From the NCBI GenBank assembly GCA_018060905.1, contig JAGOVD010000001.1, positions 1 to 50,365 on the forward strand: a stretch of 50,365 nucleotides of DNA, read 5' to 3'. The translations under genes were made by a program, and so were the position numbers. Under the pieces are notes generated by a model. The model did no database searches. It was not told where the DNA came from and worked only from the letters and a program-made list of their open reading frames with translations. This DNA comes from Minisyncoccota bacterium. GTDB lineage: Bacteria > Patescibacteriota > Minisyncoccia > Phycocordibacterales > UBA9973. Below are positions 6,189 to 48,647 of the stretch, piece by piece; positions within the stretch are counted from its first letter, which is position 1, and each line of letters begins with the position of its first letter.

Positions 6189-6488
6189 AAATATAAAAAC
6201 TAGCTTATAAAGGCTAGACGGGGTATCTGTAGATGCACAGAACCCCGCGCCAGCTCGGACTTGCGTCCACATACCAGTTTCCCGATATGACCCAACGAAG
6301 AGTAAGCTGAACGCGGGGTTCAGTATCTTCGTTGGGATTTGCGACCATATCCTTTATTTCCAAAGGGGTTAGGTCGACTAATATTTAGTTGTAGCGAAAT
6401 AGTACCATTTTGACCGATACTATTCTAGGACATTGTATCGCAGTATCACTGGATCACAGAGGAAGTTACCAACAGCTTATTTTTGAAT

Positions 6489-14402: not shown

Positions 14403-14730
14403 TTTTATATTGTAGCAAATTTTAACACAGCTCGGGCTAACTCAAACCCTACACCGTGTCACATATTAACCCCTCCTGGTCCTTCGATACTAAACTAAAC
14501 TGCTACCAACAAAGAGCTCGAACCATACCATCCGTATTGGCAGGATGAGGGTACTATTGATGCTGGCGTACCAGAGAGATACTCTAATTCATTAGAAGAG
14601 CTTTCTCGAAATTCTATCGCACGGTATCTAATGAAAAAAGTGGCTTAAGCCAGGTTCGATTCTCAAAAGGGTGCTAAAAATGGCAACCTAAAAAACCCTT
14701 TAAATTGAAGCTTCTCGTGCTAGCACGAGT

Positions 14731-14805
14731 TGGTGACCCTACGGAGAATCGAACTCCGATTTAAAGCTTGAAAAGCTTCTGTCCTAACCGTTAGACGATA
14801 GGGCC
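14731..14805 (-). tRNA. tRNA-Glu (anticodon UUC), CCA encoded
   Basis: Hand-folded cloverleaf: GGCCCTA acceptor, GTCT/GGAC D stem, GAAGC-TTTTCAA-GCTTT anticodon arm, CGGAG-TTCGATT-CTCCG T arm, TAGGGTC-A-CCA. Confidence 0.9.
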
Positions 14806-15487: not shown

Positions 15488-15561
15488 GCGCGGTTAGCTC
15501 ATATGGTTAGAGCGCAGCATTGACATTGCTGAGGTGAGAGGTTCGATCCCTCTACCGTGCA
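15488..15561 (+). tRNA. tRNA-Val (anticodon GAC)
   Basis: Hand-folded: GCGCGGT acceptor, GCTC/GAGC D stem, CAGCA-TTGACAT-TGCTG anticodon arm, AGAGG-TTCGATC-CCTCT T arm, ACCGTGC-A. Followed by CC but no complete CCA. Confidence 0.9.
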
Positions 15562-15576
15562 CCCGTTTAAAAATGA

Positions 15577-15602
15577 GCCCGTTCACACGGGCAATTTTTA
15601 TT
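15577..15602 (+). terminator. intrinsic terminator after tRNA-Val
   Basis: GCCCGT-TCAC-ACGGGC followed by AATTTTTATT. Confidence 0.65.
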
Positions 15603-15745
15603 GGGTGCACGGTAAGCAGGCAACCTGCGTTGCCTGCGTGAGGGAGCGAACGCCGGAGTCATGTTTCTTCAGCAGAAGAAACAGACGAGGCGGTGCCCAG
15701 CCCGAACTGCGCGACTGGCGCAGTGAGAGGCGAGGGAGATCCCTA
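15603..15745 (+). ncRNA. candidate structured RNA, family unassigned (GC-rich multi-hairpin element 1)
   Basis: Sharp local GC rise. Perfect hairpins at 15616-15637 (9 bp), 15663-15682 (8 bp, nested in CGCC/GGCG) and 15706-15724 (7 bp). It starts with the exact complement of the tRNA-Val 3' end. Strand is inferred only from the upstream terminator context. Confidence 0.4.
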
Positions 15746-15805
15746 CTTAGTGACTAGTGACCACAAAGTTTAAAATTTCAAGTCGAAGGCGATCCCTCTA
15801 TAATA

Positions 15806-18257: not shown

Positions 18258-18273
18258 AAAGGAGCTTTTTTTG
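18247..18273 (+). terminator. intrinsic terminator overlapping the stop codon and abutting tRNA-Ser
   Basis: AGCTTCT-TGAAA-AGGAGCT (one G-U pair) followed by TTTTTTT. Confidence 0.55.
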
Positions 18274-18360
18274 CGGAAAGGGAGGGATTCGAACCCTCGA
18301 TCAGGTTACCCCGATGTCACTTTTCGAAAGTGATGCATTCGACCACTCTGCCACCTTTCC
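18274..18360 (-). tRNA. tRNA-Ser (anticodon CGA), class II with a long variable arm
   Basis: Hand-folded: GGAAAGG acceptor, TCACT-TTCGAAA-AGTGA anticodon arm, 18-nt variable arm, GAGGG-TTCGAAT-CCCTC T arm, CCTTTCC-G. Confidence 0.9.
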
Positions 18361-18454: not shown

Positions 18455-18472
18455 CCACTCTGCCACCTTTCC
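18455..18472 (-). repeat. 18-nt exact duplicate of the tRNA-Ser 5' end
   Basis: CCACTCTGCCACCTTTCC at 18455-18472 is identical to 18343-18360. Identity stops inside the D-loop. Confidence 0.9.
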
Positions 18473-19430: not shown

Positions 19431-19696
19431 GACTTTGAGTATAGCAGGGTCGTTCACAAAATCGAAGTGTATTCTCAAAATGCACACATAAAAGCCTGCT
19501 GGCTTTTTGCTCTGCTCGGCTCAGTCAGCCTGCGCAAGGCATTTCTCGAGCACACTTCGATTTTGCTCACTCTTTTACTCGAGCGAAAAGCCAATGTATC
19601 GTTTTGCCGTCTTTCGCAAGACGACTGGTCTGAGAAGGAGCGATTTTTCAGCAGAAAAATACGCGACGGCAATAATGATACATTGGCTTTGAGCGA

Positions 19697-47960: not shown

Positions 47961-48365
47961 ATGGCAACTACTACAGACAAAAAGAAATACATCGAAACTA
48001 TCGGCCGACGCAAGACCGCTACTGCTCGCGTCCGTATTACTCCAGCAGCAAAGGCAAGCTATGTGATCAACGACCTCGCGCTTGAAACATACTTCCCAAC
48101 AGCAGAACTCCAAAAGATCGTCACCGATCCATTCAAGGTAGCTGACAAGGCATATGCAGTCACCGTCCTCGTCAAAGGCTCTGGTATCCACTCACAGGCC
48201 GAAGCAGTACGACACGGTATTTCTCGCGGACTCGTCAAAGAAGATGAATCTGACAAGACTAAGCTCAAATCAGAAGGATTCCTCAAGCGTGACCCACGAT
48301 CCAAGGAACGTCGCAAATTCGGTCTCAAAAAGGCTCGAAAAGCACCGCAATGGTCCAAACGTTAG
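47961..48365 (+). CDS. rpsI: 30S ribosomal protein S9
   Basis: GRRKTATARVRI...GGG-like core and the C-terminal RDPRSKERRKFGLKKARKAPQWSKR. Confidence 0.95.
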   Translation: MATTTDKKKYIETIGRRKTATARVRITPAAKASYVINDLALETYFPTAELQKIVTDPFKVADKAYAVTVLVKGSGIHSQAEAVRHGISRGLVKEDESDKTKLKSEGFLKRDPRSKERRKFGLKKARKAPQWSKR

Positions 48366-48369
48366 TATA

Positions 48370-48403
48370 AAAAATATCTCCAAGAAATTGGGGATATTTT
48401 TTT
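48370..48403 (+). terminator. intrinsic terminator of the rplM-rpsI operon
   Basis: ATATCTCC-AAGAAATT-GGGGATAT (one G-U pair) followed by TTTTTTT. Confidence 0.7.
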
Positions 48404-48647
48404 GGACCATTGCGGTGGGAGAAGGGGGTCGGGGAAACTCCGGTTTCCCCGTGGAGGAAGGCAGGCGAAGCCGTTGGAAAACCGTGGGTTTCCAAAGAGC
48501 CGGAGGCGACCTCATTGGAGTAAACGATAACTGCTTATCGTTTACTCCGGTGCCCGAAGGGCAGCAGCCGATGTCGTCAGACAGGCCGCAGGTGGACAAA
48601 GCGATAAGGAAAAGAGAAATCCCCCGAAAGGGGTTTTCTTATTTTTA
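48404..48647 (+). ncRNA. candidate structured RNA, family unassigned (GC-rich multi-hairpin element 2)
   Basis: Begins with the exact complement of 48343-48356. Perfect hairpins at 48430-48451 (9 bp), 48474-48495 (7 bp) and 48517-48548 (14 bp). Ends in CCCC-CGAAA-GGGG plus TTTTCTTATTTTT. Very GC-rich relative to its flanks. Confidence 0.45.

What the first reader, a model, noticed from the sequence alone, without database searches (positions are those of the whole stretch)
15553..15698. Same unusual architecture at two distant loci: gene 3' end, intrinsic terminator, exact reverse complement, then GC-rich multi-hairpin RNA
At 15553-15745 and again at 48343-48647 the layout is the same. (1) The 12-14 nt just before an intrinsic terminator are TACCGTGCACCC (the tRNA-Val 3' end) and CACCGCAATGGTCC (the last codons of rpsI). 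(2) A terminator hairpin and T-run follow. (3) Immediately after the T-run comes the perfect reverse complement (GGGTGCACGGTA at 15603-15614; GGACCATTGCGGTG at 48404-48417). (4) A strongly GC-rich element follows, and the two copies share collinear pieces: a perfect 9-bp hairpin with a 4-nt loop, purine-rich GTGAGGGAGCGAA versus GTGGAGGAAGGCAGGCGAA, GCCGGAG, TCAT, a second perfect tetraloop hairpin, and CGGTGCCC. The two hairpin pairs have different sequences but both remain perfectly paired. In a read-through transcript the flanking complement would clamp the terminator inside a 12-14 bp helix. That could be an RNase III-type processing stem that releases a co-transcribed RNA, or a read-through switch. 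Alternatively it could be the footprint of a selfish element that homes to terminators, as class C group II introns do. I do not recognise this as a described RNA family. The shared 7-8-mers alone could arise by chance in GC-rich sequence; the argument rests on their shared order plus the clamp geometry.
Basis: partly seen in the sequence, partly recalled or inferred. Interest (0 to 1): 0.78.

Follow-up and report, generated by a model that had tools for sequence, protein, structure and literature searches.

The report
Small tRNA-homing structured RNA element
The two loci are one typical and one degraded copy of an uncatalogued 150-250 bp element, common in Parcubacteria (CPR) genomes, that sits directly behind tRNA, tmRNA and a few protein genes, carries a short "guide" complementary to its own insertion site plus a conserved folded RNA core, and looks like a new kind of site-programmable mobile element.

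Summary
The inverted repeats are real and non-random: 12 nt at tRNA-Val, and 17 nt (not 14) at rpsI. The "collinear shared pieces" between the two loci are no better than shuffled controls and lie at non-equivalent positions.

Locus 1 is a clear member (52.8 bits, E 1e-11, independent model) of a family with more than 120 copies in Parcubacteria genomes and metagenomes. The family is absent from Rfam 15. Its ~100-nt core has five helices with strong covariation and a conserved G.U pair, so the + strand folds.

Copies lie co-oriented behind tRNAs of 18 amino-acid types, tmRNA, rpsI, csp and topA. Just 5' of the core lies X', the reverse complement of the host gene spanning a fixed junction (G-N-N-C|R; C56|R57 of the T-loop, or after nt 72). 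After the core's 3' GUGACC comes a second copy of the gene's 3' end.

Both copies of protein-gene ends differ mostly synonymously. Distribution is patchy, tandem arrays occur, and no protein is encoded.

Best reading: a non-autonomous mobile element that integrates at a base-pairing-defined site and supplies a replacement gene end. The enzyme or ribozyme chemistry is unknown. Locus 2 is a divergent, composite relative.

The parts
15488..15563 (+). Host gene tRNA-Val(GAC). The predicted element junction lies between C56 (15544) and G57 (15545) of the T-loop. The acceptor stem has a G3.U70 pair.
   Evidence: ARAGORN and Rfam. Junction inferred from the family rule and from X'b.
15542..15564 (+). 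X: the target segment, from the T-loop through the T-stem 3' strand, the acceptor 3' strand and the discriminator. It is complementary to X'b (15542-15552) and X'a (15553-15564).
   Evidence: Sequence; the repeat finder I4.
15577..15602 (.). Bidirectional intrinsic-terminator-like hairpin GCCCGT/ACGGGC with an A-tract and a T-run.
15603..15614 (+). X'a: GGGTGCACGGTA, the exact reverse complement of the tRNA-Val acceptor 3' strand plus ACCC.
15616..15637 (+). hp1: a perfect 9-bp hairpin with a CTGC loop. This is a family-wide 5' module.
   Evidence: In the family, 105 of 120 copies have such a hairpin and the loop is CTGC in 63.
15640..15650 (+). X'b: GAGGGAGCGAA, the reverse complement (10 of 11) of the T-loop and T-stem 3' strand TTCGATCCCTC. 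It is followed by a 1-nt linker (15651).
   Evidence: family rule.
15652..15762 (+). Conserved core C1. It contains the GCCGGAG motif, the P-a hairpin at 15663-15682 (AGCA loop), the CGAG/GGUGCC mid motif, a hairpin at 15706-15724, and the 3' GTGACC at 15757-15762.
   Evidence: Independent model R2: 15643-15743, 52.8 bits, E 1.2e-11. R1.
15790..15800 (+). Remnant direct repeat CGATCCCTCTA, a second copy of tRNA-Val positions 56-66. It marks the right boundary of the insertion.
   Evidence: Sequence compared with 15544-15554.
47961..48365 (+). Host gene rpsI (ribosomal protein S9).
   Evidence: PF00380.
48343..48359 (+). X at rpsI: the last codons, CACCGCAATGGTCCAAA.
48369..48402 (+). rpsI terminator hairpin and T-run.
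   Evidence: the repeat finder I18; sequence.
48401..48417 (+). X' at rpsI: TTTGGACCATTGCGGTG, a perfect 17-nt complement of X.
   Evidence: Homologous elements in L093 and L079 carry an X' matched to their own rpsI codons.
48418..48511 (+). Variant core C2, bounded by GGGGGUCGG (48424-48432) and GGCGACC (48505-48511), with hairpins at 48431-48450 and 48474-48495. It is 87% identical to the element behind rpsI in L093.
   Evidence: The R2 hit at 48455-48561 scores only 10.4 bits, E 0.53, so membership rests on the shared layout and not on score.
48477..48530 (+). Relic of an rpsI 3' end (..ENRGFPKSRRRPHWSKR*): a displaced or foreign second copy of the gene end.
   Evidence: BLASTP alignment to the RpsI C-terminus, end to end, E 2e-4. 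It is 14 of 15 nt identical to L093-type rpsI ends.
48517..48548 (+). Perfect 14-bp hairpin with a CTGC loop. Its 5' arm is the end of the rpsI relic and its 3' arm is the reverse complement of that end, forming a second X-loop-X' unit.
   Evidence: the repeat finder I15. Strain variants carry two substitutions that both give G.U on the + strand.
48549..48645 (+). Degenerate remainder: GGTGCCC..., then GGCCGCAG..GTGGAC|AAAGCGATAA, which resembles the GTGACC|AAAGAGATAA junction of L034. It ends with a terminator at 48616-48645.
   Evidence: This interpretation is an inference.

Best explanation
Both loci carry copies of a non-autonomous mobile element of ~150-250 bp that is widespread in Parcubacteria/Paceibacterota. 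C1 is canonical. C2 is divergent and composite.

Layout, 5' to 3', co-oriented with the host gene:
1. A copy of the host gene's 3' remainder (R'), so the gene stays intact.
2. A spacer that is often a terminator.
3. A guide X', sometimes split as X'a - hp1 (CTGC-loop hairpin) - X'b.
4. One linker base, usually A.
5. A ~100-nt conserved folded core ending in GUGACC.
6. The displaced old gene end (R).

X' is the reverse complement of the target across the junction. It covers exactly 3 nt on the left and 8-20 nt on the right of a G-N-N-C|R site. That site is C56|R57 in the T-loop, or after nt 72 of tRNA and tmRNA, and equivalent sites occur in rpsI, csp and topA.

Inferred mechanism. The element is transcribed by read-through from its highly expressed host gene. 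Its + strand, as RNA or possibly as single-stranded DNA, folds. X' selects the target by base pairing. The core either recruits an unknown trans-acting enzyme or is itself catalytic. The result is joining of the element's 3' C to the R side of the junction, which integrates the element together with its own copy of the gene end.

Status of each step. Shown: the family, its structure, the guide, the repeat rule, the duplicated gene ends and the patchy, arrayed distribution. Inferred: mobility via guide pairing, the strand and chemistry involved, and any enzyme.
For: Family and structure.
- C1 scores 52.8 bits, E 1.2e-11, with model R2, which was built without any window sequence.
- On 122 aligned copies, 96.5% of cells are paired. 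There are 461 double-sided changes against 120.6 in shuffles (0 of 500 reach it), and slid controls give 25-52% paired.
- A conserved G.U pair (112 of 121) puts the structure on the + strand.
- No Rfam family matches, even at E <= 1.

Context.
- 87 of 129 pattern matches have a same-strand tRNA, covering 18 amino-acid types, ending 24-147 nt upstream.
- tmRNA is the upstream gene in L097, L138, L159 and L170.
- rpsI, csp and topA are also hosts.

Guide.
- An exact reverse-complement match of >= 8 nt, ending within 3 nt of the core, is present in 75 of 114 copies. Non-cognate pairings give 6.9%.
- X' follows each genome's own rpsI codons, unusual T-loops and topA codons.

Junction.
- X reaches exactly 3 nt left of the repeat start in 25 of 32 copies.
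- Target position -4 is G in 73 of 74 copies, -1 is C in 71 of 74, and +1 is a purine in 66 of 74.
- The first 3 nt after the core equal R' in 52 of 74 copies.

Gene-end copies.
- The two topA ends differ by 31 synonymous against 9 nonsynonymous codon changes.
- rpsI relics also keep K-R-stop with different codons.

Mobility.
- Most relatives have an empty rpsI site, for example L018.
- Only 6 of 80 sampled relatives carry canonical copies.
- C2's module is 87% identical to L093's, although the RpsI proteins are only 63% identical.
- Tandem arrays occur in L063, L100, L107 and L051.
- Near-identical atypical cores sit behind different tRNAs in one genome, each with its cognate X'.
- No recurrent neighbouring protein was found.
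Against: - No trans-acting enzyme, excised form or transcript was observed.
- No filled/empty allele pair was found in near-identical strains, so the exact inserted segment is inferred.
- In L063 the repeats are perfect (20 of 20) but X' is imperfect. In L105 X' is perfect while the downstream repeat has decayed. X'.X pairing may therefore be maintained in place for an RNA-level role or by gene conversion, and not only for targeting.
- C2 and its closest relatives do not score significantly with the family model (E 0.53).
- The metagenome copies were found with a pattern that fixes several core motifs, so the invariance of those motifs is partly by construction. The covarying pairs, X' and the repeats were not part of the pattern.
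- Mismatches in extended X.X' helices show no G.U bias: 12 G.T against 11 A.C.
Confidence: 0.55

Rival explanations
1. A host-serving cis element. The small RNA is co-transcribed with the tRNA or mRNA, as in dicistronic tRNA-snoRNA genes processed by RNase Z. Its 5' segment pairs with the upstream gene's 3' end, forming a long duplex that directs RNase III or RNase Z processing, strengthens termination, or gates read-through.
For: X.X' plus the terminator forms a near-continuous 30-40 bp hairpin with very low folding energy. X'.X complementarity is kept even where the downstream repeat has decayed. The element is always co-oriented with a highly expressed gene. The core has conserved structure, as expected of a functional RNA. 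A dicistronic tRNA-small-RNA precedent is cited in PMC12045711, references 66-67.
Against: It does not explain the direct repeat that begins exactly 3 nt inside X, the G-N-N-C|R rule, the xenologous second copies of topA and rpsI ends, the tandem arrays, or the patchy presence among close relatives. Pairing with the T-arm and acceptor strand would compete with tRNA folding. A third of copies have no T-run between gene and element.
Confidence: 0.15
2. A miniature derivative of a single-strand-DNA transposon of the IS200/IS605 type (or IS91-like), moved in trans by a HUH transposase. Under this reading hp1 and the core hairpins are the subterminal hairpins, GGUCGC-hairpin-GUGACC| is a right end in which a guide pairs with its cleavage site, and X' is an unusually long left guide.
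For: The structure lies on one strand only and includes a conserved G.T(U) pair. The order GGUCGC, then a hairpin, then GUGACC| mimics the IS608 right-end order of guide, hairpin, cleavage site (my knowledge of IS608). Insertion is 3' of a short motif, G-N-N-C, which is GTTC in the T-loop. hp1 stems are perfect and hypervariable while the loop is conserved. There is no classical short target duplication.
Against: No Y1 or Y2 HUH transposase was seen near any copy. Known guides in that family are ~4 nt, not 9-25 nt. The elements carry a replacement gene end, which PATEs do not. All copies are co-oriented with host transcription, which a replication-strand-driven mechanism does not require.
Confidence: 0.1
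3. A CIME-like mini integrative element, moved in trans by tyrosine integrases of tRNA-targeting islands. The direct repeats would then be attL/attR, and the inverted segment part of the att site.
For: The T-loop and the extreme 3' end are the classic integrase sublocations in tRNA and tmRNA genes (Williams 2002, my knowledge). The element restores the gene's 3' end. There are direct repeats of 17-23 nt that end near the tRNA 3' end, and tandem arrays.
Against: There are at least 18 different tRNA types plus tmRNA and three protein genes, each with its own matched sequences and one shared core. That would need many integrases or a sequence-independent one. No integrase lies nearby. A covarying single-strand fold with a conserved G.U is not expected of duplex arm sites. 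The topA gene-end copies are only ~67% identical in nucleotides, yet the junction is precise.
Confidence: 0.08
4. A retroelement-type satellite. Under this reading X'a and X'b act as a primer-binding site for the tRNA 3' end, the gene-end copies act as terminal repeats, and a reverse transcriptase encoded elsewhere copies the RNA.
For: In T-type copies, X'a plus X'b complement up to the last ~22 nt of the tRNA, the same span as a retroviral primer-binding site. The repeated gene-end segments flank the RNA like R regions. The hosts are abundant RNAs.
Against: The rpsI, csp and topA copies have guides against internal mRNA sequence, where no 3'-OH primer exists. X'a pairs with genomic trailer bases and not with CCA. 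No reverse transcriptase was seen nearby.
Confidence: 0.05
5. Chance or a purely mutational by-product. Hairpin-templated (quasi-palindrome) repair extends terminator arms, and the GC-rich parts are unrelated.
For: The direct C1-C2 similarity is at chance level. Hairpins are often perfect.
Against: Clamps occur only next to the elements in the window. More than 120 homologous cores share the same flank rules. In topA copies X and X' are ~100 nt apart with no palindrome between them.
Confidence: 0.02

Closest known systems
Group I intron internal guide sequence (P1/P10) and mobility by reverse splicing
   Same: A guide near the element's 5' side is complementary to both sides of the junction (short left part, then right part). 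The junction lies inside a continuous helix. The element's 3' terminal nucleotide ends up joined to the right-hand target. The hosts are abundant RNAs (tRNA, tmRNA).
   Different: The core is ~100 nt and has no match to RF00028. There is no terminal G and no U.G at the junction, which reads G-N-N-C|R. The element carries a duplicate of the 3' exon-like segment, and the host gene is complete without splicing. No splicing has been shown.
Class C (IIC) group II introns
   Same: They insert just downstream of intrinsic terminators or hairpins, and recognise the target partly by base pairing.
   Different: There is no six-domain structure, no domain V, no ORF, and the size is roughly a tenth. The target is a defined junction inside the gene's 3' part and not the terminator. 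Rfam finds no group II hit.
tRNA/tmRNA-targeting genomic islands and their CIME derivatives (tyrosine integrases)
   Same: The sublocations are the same (T-loop, 3' end). The element supplies a replacement 3' end. The displaced old end remains as a direct repeat. Tandem accretion occurs.
   Different: The element is 150-250 bp and encodes no integrase. One conserved folded core serves many different targets. An inverted guide is present. Junctions remain precise even where the two gene-end copies are strongly diverged.
IS110/IS1111 bridge (seek) RNA systems
   Same: A structured non-coding RNA of ~100-180 nt whose sequence specifies the insertion target by base pairing. It is in principle reprogrammable.
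   Different: No DEDD/serine recombinase gene lies in or near the element. The guide is one contiguous stretch of 9-25 nt (or two stretches around a hairpin) rather than split loops. A gene-end copy is carried along.
IS200/IS605 elements and their PATE miniatures
   Same: Folding is strand-specific. The order is guide, hairpin, cleavage site at the 3' end. Insertion is 3' of a short motif.
   Different: The guide is much longer. A replacement gene end is carried. No TnpA was seen. Orientation is strictly tied to host transcription.
Folded single-strand att sites (CTX phage / XerCD, integron attC)
   Same: After integration the layout is site - spacer - inverted site - cargo - site, as expected when a hairpin-folded single strand recombines with a duplex target.
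   Different: Target sequences vary widely instead of being one dif or attI site. The conserved part is the cargo-like core and not the site.
R2 retrotransposon 5' HDV-like ribozyme; dicistronic tRNA-snoRNA genes
   Same: A promoterless element co-transcribed with a highly expressed RNA gene. Pairing occurs between host and element sequence at the 5' junction. Release by RNA processing is plausible.
   Different: No ribozyme family match, no ORF, and a bacterial (CPR) host.

Membership tests
New family defined here (core model R2) | Significant match to the covariance model built from 122 metagenome copies | tested here: met
   C1: 52.8 bits, E 1.2e-11.
New family defined here (core model R2) | Same test applied to locus 2 (C2) | tested here: not met
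   C2: 10.4 bits, E 0.53. Its relatives L093 and L079 are also not significant. C2 is filed as a divergent relative on layout only: X', GGGGGUCGG...GGCGACC, a gene-end relic, and the same site as the canonical copies L034 and L039.
New family defined here | Guide X' ends 1 nt before the core and is complementary to the upstream gene across a G-N-N-C|R junction | tested here: met
   C1: X'b GAGGGAGCGAA against TTCGATCCCTC, with G53 at -4 and C56 at -1. Family statistics. C2: 17-nt X'.
New family defined here | A second copy of the gene's 3' remainder lies after the core | tested here: met
   C1: CGATCCCTCTA at 15790-15800, though 27 nt beyond GTGACC. C2: rpsI relic directly after GGCGACC.
Group II intron (class C) | Domain structure, domain V and 5' GUGYG recognisable by Rfam group II models | tested here: not met
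   No hit at gathering threshold or at E <= 10 at either locus, nor on canonical members at E <= 1.
Group II intron (class C) | Size >= ~600 nt, with or without an RT ORF | tested here: not met
   The element is ~150-250 nt and has no ORF.
Group I intron | Catalytic core (P3-P9) matching RF00028, with a terminal G | tested here: not met
   No RF00028 hit on the elements. The 3' end is ..GACC.
Known self-cleaving ribozymes (HDV-like, hammerhead, twister, pistol, hatchet) | Match to the Rfam model | tested here: not met
   No such hit at E <= 1 on seven canonical loci.
IS200/IS605 (PATE) | A Y1 HUH transposase in the genome acting on the hairpin ends | not testable with these tools
   Only windows around copies were available, and no recurrent neighbouring protein was found. 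Whole genomes were not scanned.
IS110 bridge-RNA elements | A DEDD/Tnp recombinase gene adjacent to the RNA | tested here: not met
   No ORF lies inside the units, and the neighbours are housekeeping genes.
Integrase-driven tRNA-targeting island / CIME | A cognate tyrosine integrase, with att sites specific to one tRNA | tested here: inconclusive
   No integrase was found in Pfam or PHROGs scans of flanking ORFs or in neighbour clusters. At least 18 tRNA types are targeted. Action in trans cannot be excluded.
TIGR-Tas arrays | Short (~36-nt) tigRNA units in arrays next to a Nop-domain Tas gene | tested here: not met
   Units here are 170-330 nt with a ~100-nt core and no adjacent gene. Paper read.

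The most novel reading that the evidence does not exclude
The ~100-nt core is itself a small catalytic RNA, a minimal self-inserting 'mini-intron'. Its 5' guide X' aligns a target RNA (tRNA, tmRNA or an abundant mRNA) across a G-N-N-C|R junction, as a group I P1/P10 pairing does. Its 3'-terminal C is then joined to the R side by reverse-splicing-like transesterification. The RNA product, carrying a copy of the target's 3' end, is later fixed in DNA. This would be a new, easily reprogrammable ribozyme class and a protein-free targeting module.
Probability: 0.12. Interest if true: 0.95.

Novelty: categorically new. Interest (0 to 1): 0.82.

Why it matters
If correct, this is an abundant and previously uncatalogued class of tiny, protein-less elements whose insertion site is written in a short complementary guide next to a conserved RNA scaffold.

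- It would explain much of the unexplained GC-rich "junk" behind tRNA genes in CPR genomes.
- It would explain contig breaks and chimeric tRNA 3' halves in CPR assemblies.
- It would give a natural example of site-programmable integration that preserves the target gene by bringing a spare 3' end.
- Finding the partner enzyme, or showing ribozyme activity, could yield a compact programmable insertion or RNA-joining tool.
- It makes the old idea of intron-like mobility through abundant RNAs directly testable.
- Even in the most conservative reading, it is a new, strongly covarying RNA family with more than 120 members.

Tried and rejected
- Rfam at gathering and permissive thresholds, on both loci and on canonical members: only tRNA, tmRNA, LOOT and one unrelated group I intron.
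- Direct C1-C2 homology: rejected by shuffle controls.
- The pattern GCCGGAG..TCAT..GGTGCCC matched only the two loci. It was derived post hoc, and the CM later showed it joins non-equivalent motifs.
- Pfam and PHROGs scans of ORFs flanking both loci: no integrase, transposase or RT.
- Clustering of 740 ORFs within 4 kb of copies: only housekeeping families recur.
- A kissing interaction between the hp1 loop (CTGC) and the P-a loop (AGCA): no loop-loop covariation.
- G.U bias in X.X' mismatches as a test of RNA-level pairing: uninformative, 12 against 11.
- Deciding which gene-end copy is native by testing stem pairing of the upstream and downstream tRNA 3' copies: uninformative, because the upstream copy is always the functional one.
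- Viral contigs: one false positive in a GC-rich coding region.
- Strain contigs for an empty tRNA-Val allele: contigs break in the T-arm, and one shows a different T-arm, but no full empty site was recovered.
- Literature searches found no description of the family. TIGR-Tas was checked and is different.
- Reading the C2 14-bp hairpin as the family's 3' hairpin (CM alignment, E 0.53), against reading it as an rpsI relic plus its complement: the second reading is preferred, but the question is not settled.
Full report
**1. The observation**

tRNA-Val(GAC) lies at 15488-15563. Its last 12 encoded bases, TACCGTGCACCC (15553-15564), are followed by a bidirectional terminator-like hairpin (15577-15592). 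After the T-run comes the exact reverse complement GGGTGCACGGTA (15603-15614).

CACCGCAATGGTCCAAA (48343-48359) pairs perfectly over 17 nt with 48401-48417, around a terminator at 48369-48402.

Perfect 12-mers in inverted orientation with a 10-60 nt spacer occur nowhere else in the 50 kb. Dinucleotide shuffles give a mean of 0.3 such windows. Both regions fold far better than shuffles, with z = -10.0 and -7.6.

The two GC-rich parts do not align better than shuffled sequence: local score 16 against 17.0 +/- 2.4, with 360 of 500 shuffles at least as good. The shared 7-8-mers fall at different positions of the family model.

**2. What the window is**

RpsI is found with identical sequence in two MAGs (GCA_017992135.1, GCA_020050275.1) and in several metagenomes. 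The nearest genomes are Parcubacteria/Paceibacterota ("Nomurabacteria"-like) MAGs.

Rfam finds no family at either locus, at gathering threshold or at E <= 10.

**3. Relatives of the elements**

Most related genomes have rpsI, a plain terminator and then the next gene. In L018, for example, the grpE promoter follows directly, so this is an empty site.

Sequence searches of the 80 related loci found homologues directly behind rpsI in L093, L079, L034 and L039, behind tRNAs in L051 and L063, and behind a cold-shock gene in L090 and L080.

In each case the segment just upstream of the conserved part is the reverse complement of that genome's own upstream gene sequence. L093, for example, has CGCTTACTCCATTGTGGAG against its rpsI codons CTCCACAATGGAGTAAGCG. 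The adjacent module is nevertheless 87% identical to C2, although the two RpsI proteins share only 63% identity.

**4. A large family**

A degenerate pattern taken from the core was scanned against metagenome contigs. Three GC-rich coding false positives were set aside.

A covariance search over 100 of these loci gave 122 copies, often several per contig.

The consensus has five helices.
- 96.5% of cells are paired.
- There are 461 cells with changes on both sides, against 120.6 in shuffles (0 of 500 reach it).
- Sliding the partners drops pairing to 25-52%.
- One pair is G.U in 112 of 121 sequences and another alternates G-C with G.U (65 and 38). The fold is therefore on the + strand, the strand transcribed with the host gene.

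One caveat applies. The pattern fixed several motifs (GSCRSAG, CGAG..GRGUCG, UGACC), so their invariance is partly by construction. The covarying pairs, the P-a hairpin and all flanks were unconstrained.

No Rfam family, ribozymes included, matches canonical copies even at E <= 1.

**5. Membership of the two window loci**

Model R2, built only from metagenome copies, scores C1 (15643-15743) at 52.8 bits, E 1.2e-11. Its 3' half is atypical.

C2 scores 10.4 bits, E 0.53. Its close relatives L093 and L079 are also not significant. C2 is therefore filed as a divergent relative on layout alone:
- X';
- a variant core bounded by GGGGGUCGG and GGCGACC;
- a relic of an rpsI 3' end;
- the same site as the canonical copies in L034 and L039.

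**6. Layout of the family**

Of 129 pattern matches, 87 have a same-strand tRNA ending 24-147 nt upstream, and 18 amino-acid types are represented. Others follow tmRNA (L097, L138, L159, L170), rpsI, a csp gene, or sit in the 3' part of topA.

Guide:
- Immediately 5' of the core, separated by one base (A in 54 and G in 16 of 74 copies), lies X'.
- An exact reverse-complement match of >= 8 nt to upstream sequence is present in 75 of 114 copies, and >= 10 nt in 53.
- Non-cognate pairings give 6.9% and 1.2%.

Repeat:
- After the core's 3' GUGACC the sequence repeats the upstream gene.
- The repeat is >= 8 nt in 31 copies (null 1.9%) and >= 12 nt in 23 (null 0.2%).
- Typical lengths are 17-23 nt, ending at or just past the tRNA 3' end.
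- The first 3 nt after the core equal the upstream copy in 52 of 74 copies.

Junction:
- In 25 of 32 copies X reaches exactly 3 nt to the left of the repeat start.
- The junction reads G(-4) in 73 of 74, C(-1) in 71 of 74 and R(+1) in 66 of 74 copies.
- In "T-type" copies this is G53-T-T-C56|R57 of the T-loop. In "A-type" copies it follows nt 72.
- The element's own 3' end, GACC|, fits the same motif.

Upstream module:
- A perfect hairpin (median 9 bp) is present in 105 of 120 copies, and its loop is CTGC in 63.
- In T-type copies this hairpin splits the guide into X'a (anti-acceptor strand) and X'b (anti-T-loop and T-stem).
- A T-run between gene and element is present in only 56 of 87 tRNA cases. 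The terminator is therefore not a defining part.

**7. Re-reading locus 1**

C1 is a T-type copy:
- X'a at 15603-15614;
- hp1 at 15616-15637 (CTGC loop);
- X'b, GAGGGAGCGAA, at 15640-15650, which matches the complement of TTCGATCCCTC at 10 of 11 positions;
- the linker at 15651;
- the core from 15652 to GTGACC at 15757-15762;
- a remnant second copy of tRNA positions 56-66 (CGATCCCTCTA) at 15790-15800.

**8. Re-reading locus 2**

After X' (48401-48417) comes a variant core ending in GGCGACC (48505-48511). The following sequence encodes ..RRRPHWSKR*, which aligns end to end with the RpsI C-terminus (E 2e-4). It is 14 of 15 nt identical to the rpsI ends of L093-type genomes.

The last 14 nt of this relic, a CTGC loop and their exact complement form the "second perfect hairpin" (48517-48548). 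This is therefore another X-loop-X' unit.

In strain variants this hairpin carries two substitutions (A>G in the 5' arm, C>T in the 3' arm). Both give G.U on the + strand.

The rest (48549-48607) looks like a deleted core joined to AAAGCGATAA, as at the L034 junction GTGACC|AAAGAGATAA, followed by a terminator. The most economical reading is serial insertions that each displaced the previous gene end. This is an inference.

**9. Evidence for mobility and for a carried gene end**

- Presence is patchy. Canonical copies occur in 6 of 80 sampled relatives, and empty sites exist.
- Tandem arrays with perfect unit repeats occur: L063 with 20-nt repeats, and L100, L107 and L051.
- In L099, near-identical atypical cores follow different tRNAs, each with an X' matching that tRNA's unusual T-loop. 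One copy combines the 5' module of one unit with the core of another.
- In three genomes the element sits at the same topA position. The upstream (functional) and downstream copies of the last ~19 codons differ by 31 synonymous and 9 nonsynonymous changes. Between genomes the downstream copies also differ mostly synonymously.
- Both copies therefore evolved as coding sequence, so one of them is foreign. This is what an element carrying a replacement gene end predicts, and a simple target-site duplication does not predict it.
- Clustering of 740 neighbouring ORFs shows only housekeeping genes. Pfam and PHROGs scans of flanking ORFs in the window show no integrase, transposase or RT.

**10. Mechanism**

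Shown: a conserved folded + strand core; a cognate guide spanning a fixed junction; a second gene-end copy; and a patchy, arrayed, intragenomically spreading distribution.

Inferred: the element is non-autonomous and mobile. X' selects the site by pairing with 3 nt on the left and 8-20 nt on the right of G-N-N-C|R. The core is either the handle for an unknown trans-acting enzyme or is itself catalytic. Integration brings the element's own copy of the gene end, so the host gene survives and the old end decays downstream. Expression is by read-through from very highly expressed genes.

The geometry resembles P1/P10 of group I introns and, more loosely, the guide logic of IS605 and IS110. None of these families' defining features is met.

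Points that do not fit neatly:
- L063 has perfect repeats but an imperfect guide, while L105 has a perfect guide and a decayed repeat. X'.X pairing is therefore maintained in place, by selection or by conversion, and is not simply made at insertion.
- No G.U bias is seen in X.X' mismatches.

**11. Rivals**

A host-serving processing or termination clamp is not excluded for the X.X' helix. It leaves the repeat rule, the duplicated gene ends, the arrays and the patchiness unexplained.

An IS200/IS605-like single-strand DNA miniature, an integrase-driven CIME, and a retroelement with a primer-binding-site-like guide each explain part of the pattern and conflict with other parts. Details are in the rival entries.

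Chance is excluded.

**12. Novelty**

Neither Rfam 15 nor three full-text searches returned this family. TIGR-Tas, which also occurs in Parcubacteria, is different.

I rate it as a new kind of element, with the reservation that a known enzyme class acting in trans may yet be found. That would move it to "new variant of a known kind".

Noticed in passing
window 6256-6375 (-): A full-length LOOT RNA (RF03000, 82.7 bits against a gathering score of 46.4). It is another structured RNA of unknown function in this window.
   Followed up: no
window 14654-14729 (-), downstream of tRNA-Glu 14731-14805: tRNA-Glu is followed by a perfect palindrome, CTCGTGC-TA-GCACGAG (14714-14729). Then comes ACCCTTTTGAGAATCGAAC (14654-14672), an 84% reverse complement of its own T-arm and acceptor strand, including a perfect 10-nt GAGAATCGAA. 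No core follows. This looks like a core-less relic of the same element type.
   Followed up: partly
window 15488-15563: The acceptor stem of tRNA-Val(GAC) has a G3.U70 pair (5' GCGCGGT / 3' ACCGTGC). G3.U70 is the classic alanine identity element. It may be a side effect of a foreign 3' half brought in by the element.
   Followed up: no
L012-L014 (strain contigs of the tRNA-Val locus): Three independent assemblies break inside the tRNA-Val T-arm. L013 carries a different 3' half (..GGTCGGAAGTTCGAATCT). Strain-level variation therefore starts within the tRNA, as expected if the element is polymorphic.
   Followed up: partly
window 18455-18472 (-), upstream of tRNA-Ser 18273-18360: An 18-nt duplicate of the tRNA-Ser 5' end (GGAAAGGTGGCAGAGTGG) sits ~95 nt upstream of the real gene, followed by tRNA-like but non-scoring sequence. 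It is a pseudo-tRNA fragment.
   Followed up: no
window 19587-19690 (+): A 17-nt inverted repeat (AAAGCCAATGTATCGTT / AATGATACATTGGCTTT) encloses a nested hairpin and a half-core-like motif, GGAGCGAU-UUUUC AGCA GAAAA-AUACGCGA. R2 scores it at 14.5 bits, E 0.048. It may be a truncated copy or an unrelated small RNA.
   Followed up: partly
window 13-18 kb against 18.4-20.8, 21.3-23.1, 23.7-26.5 and 30.3-31.3 kb: Base composition is mosaic, with blocks of ~33-40% GC alternating with blocks of ~50-55% GC. The AT-rich block between tRNA-Val and tRNA-Ser holds two ORFs (392 and 287 aa) with no family match. It may be an islet.
   Followed up: no
L016 10400-10800 and the rpsI-grpE spacers of L017-L032: The spacer between the rpsI terminator and the grpE promoter is hypervariable among close relatives. 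It ranges from nothing (L018), through small ORFs, to a ~370-nt non-coding insert with its own promoter-like TTGACC-17-TAGTAT in L016.
   Followed up: no
L101, L121, L155 (near the elements): A second recurrent small motif, GGGUACUG-[5-bp stem]-GUAA-[stem]-CGAAUC, abuts T-loop-like sequence. It may be another small element or ribozyme-like motif associated with tRNA 3' halves.
   Followed up: no
L117 and L187, ~100-220 nt upstream of their elements: The two loci share a conserved structured-looking RNA (..CACCACGCAAUC.GAGCG.ACG..) that ends in a tRNA-like 3' end. The element has inserted at this end. Rfam does not recognise the RNA at gathering threshold.
   Followed up: no
L107 4331-4534: A group I intron (RF00028, 58.6 bits) lies close to a tRNA cluster that also carries three copies of the element.
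   Followed up: no
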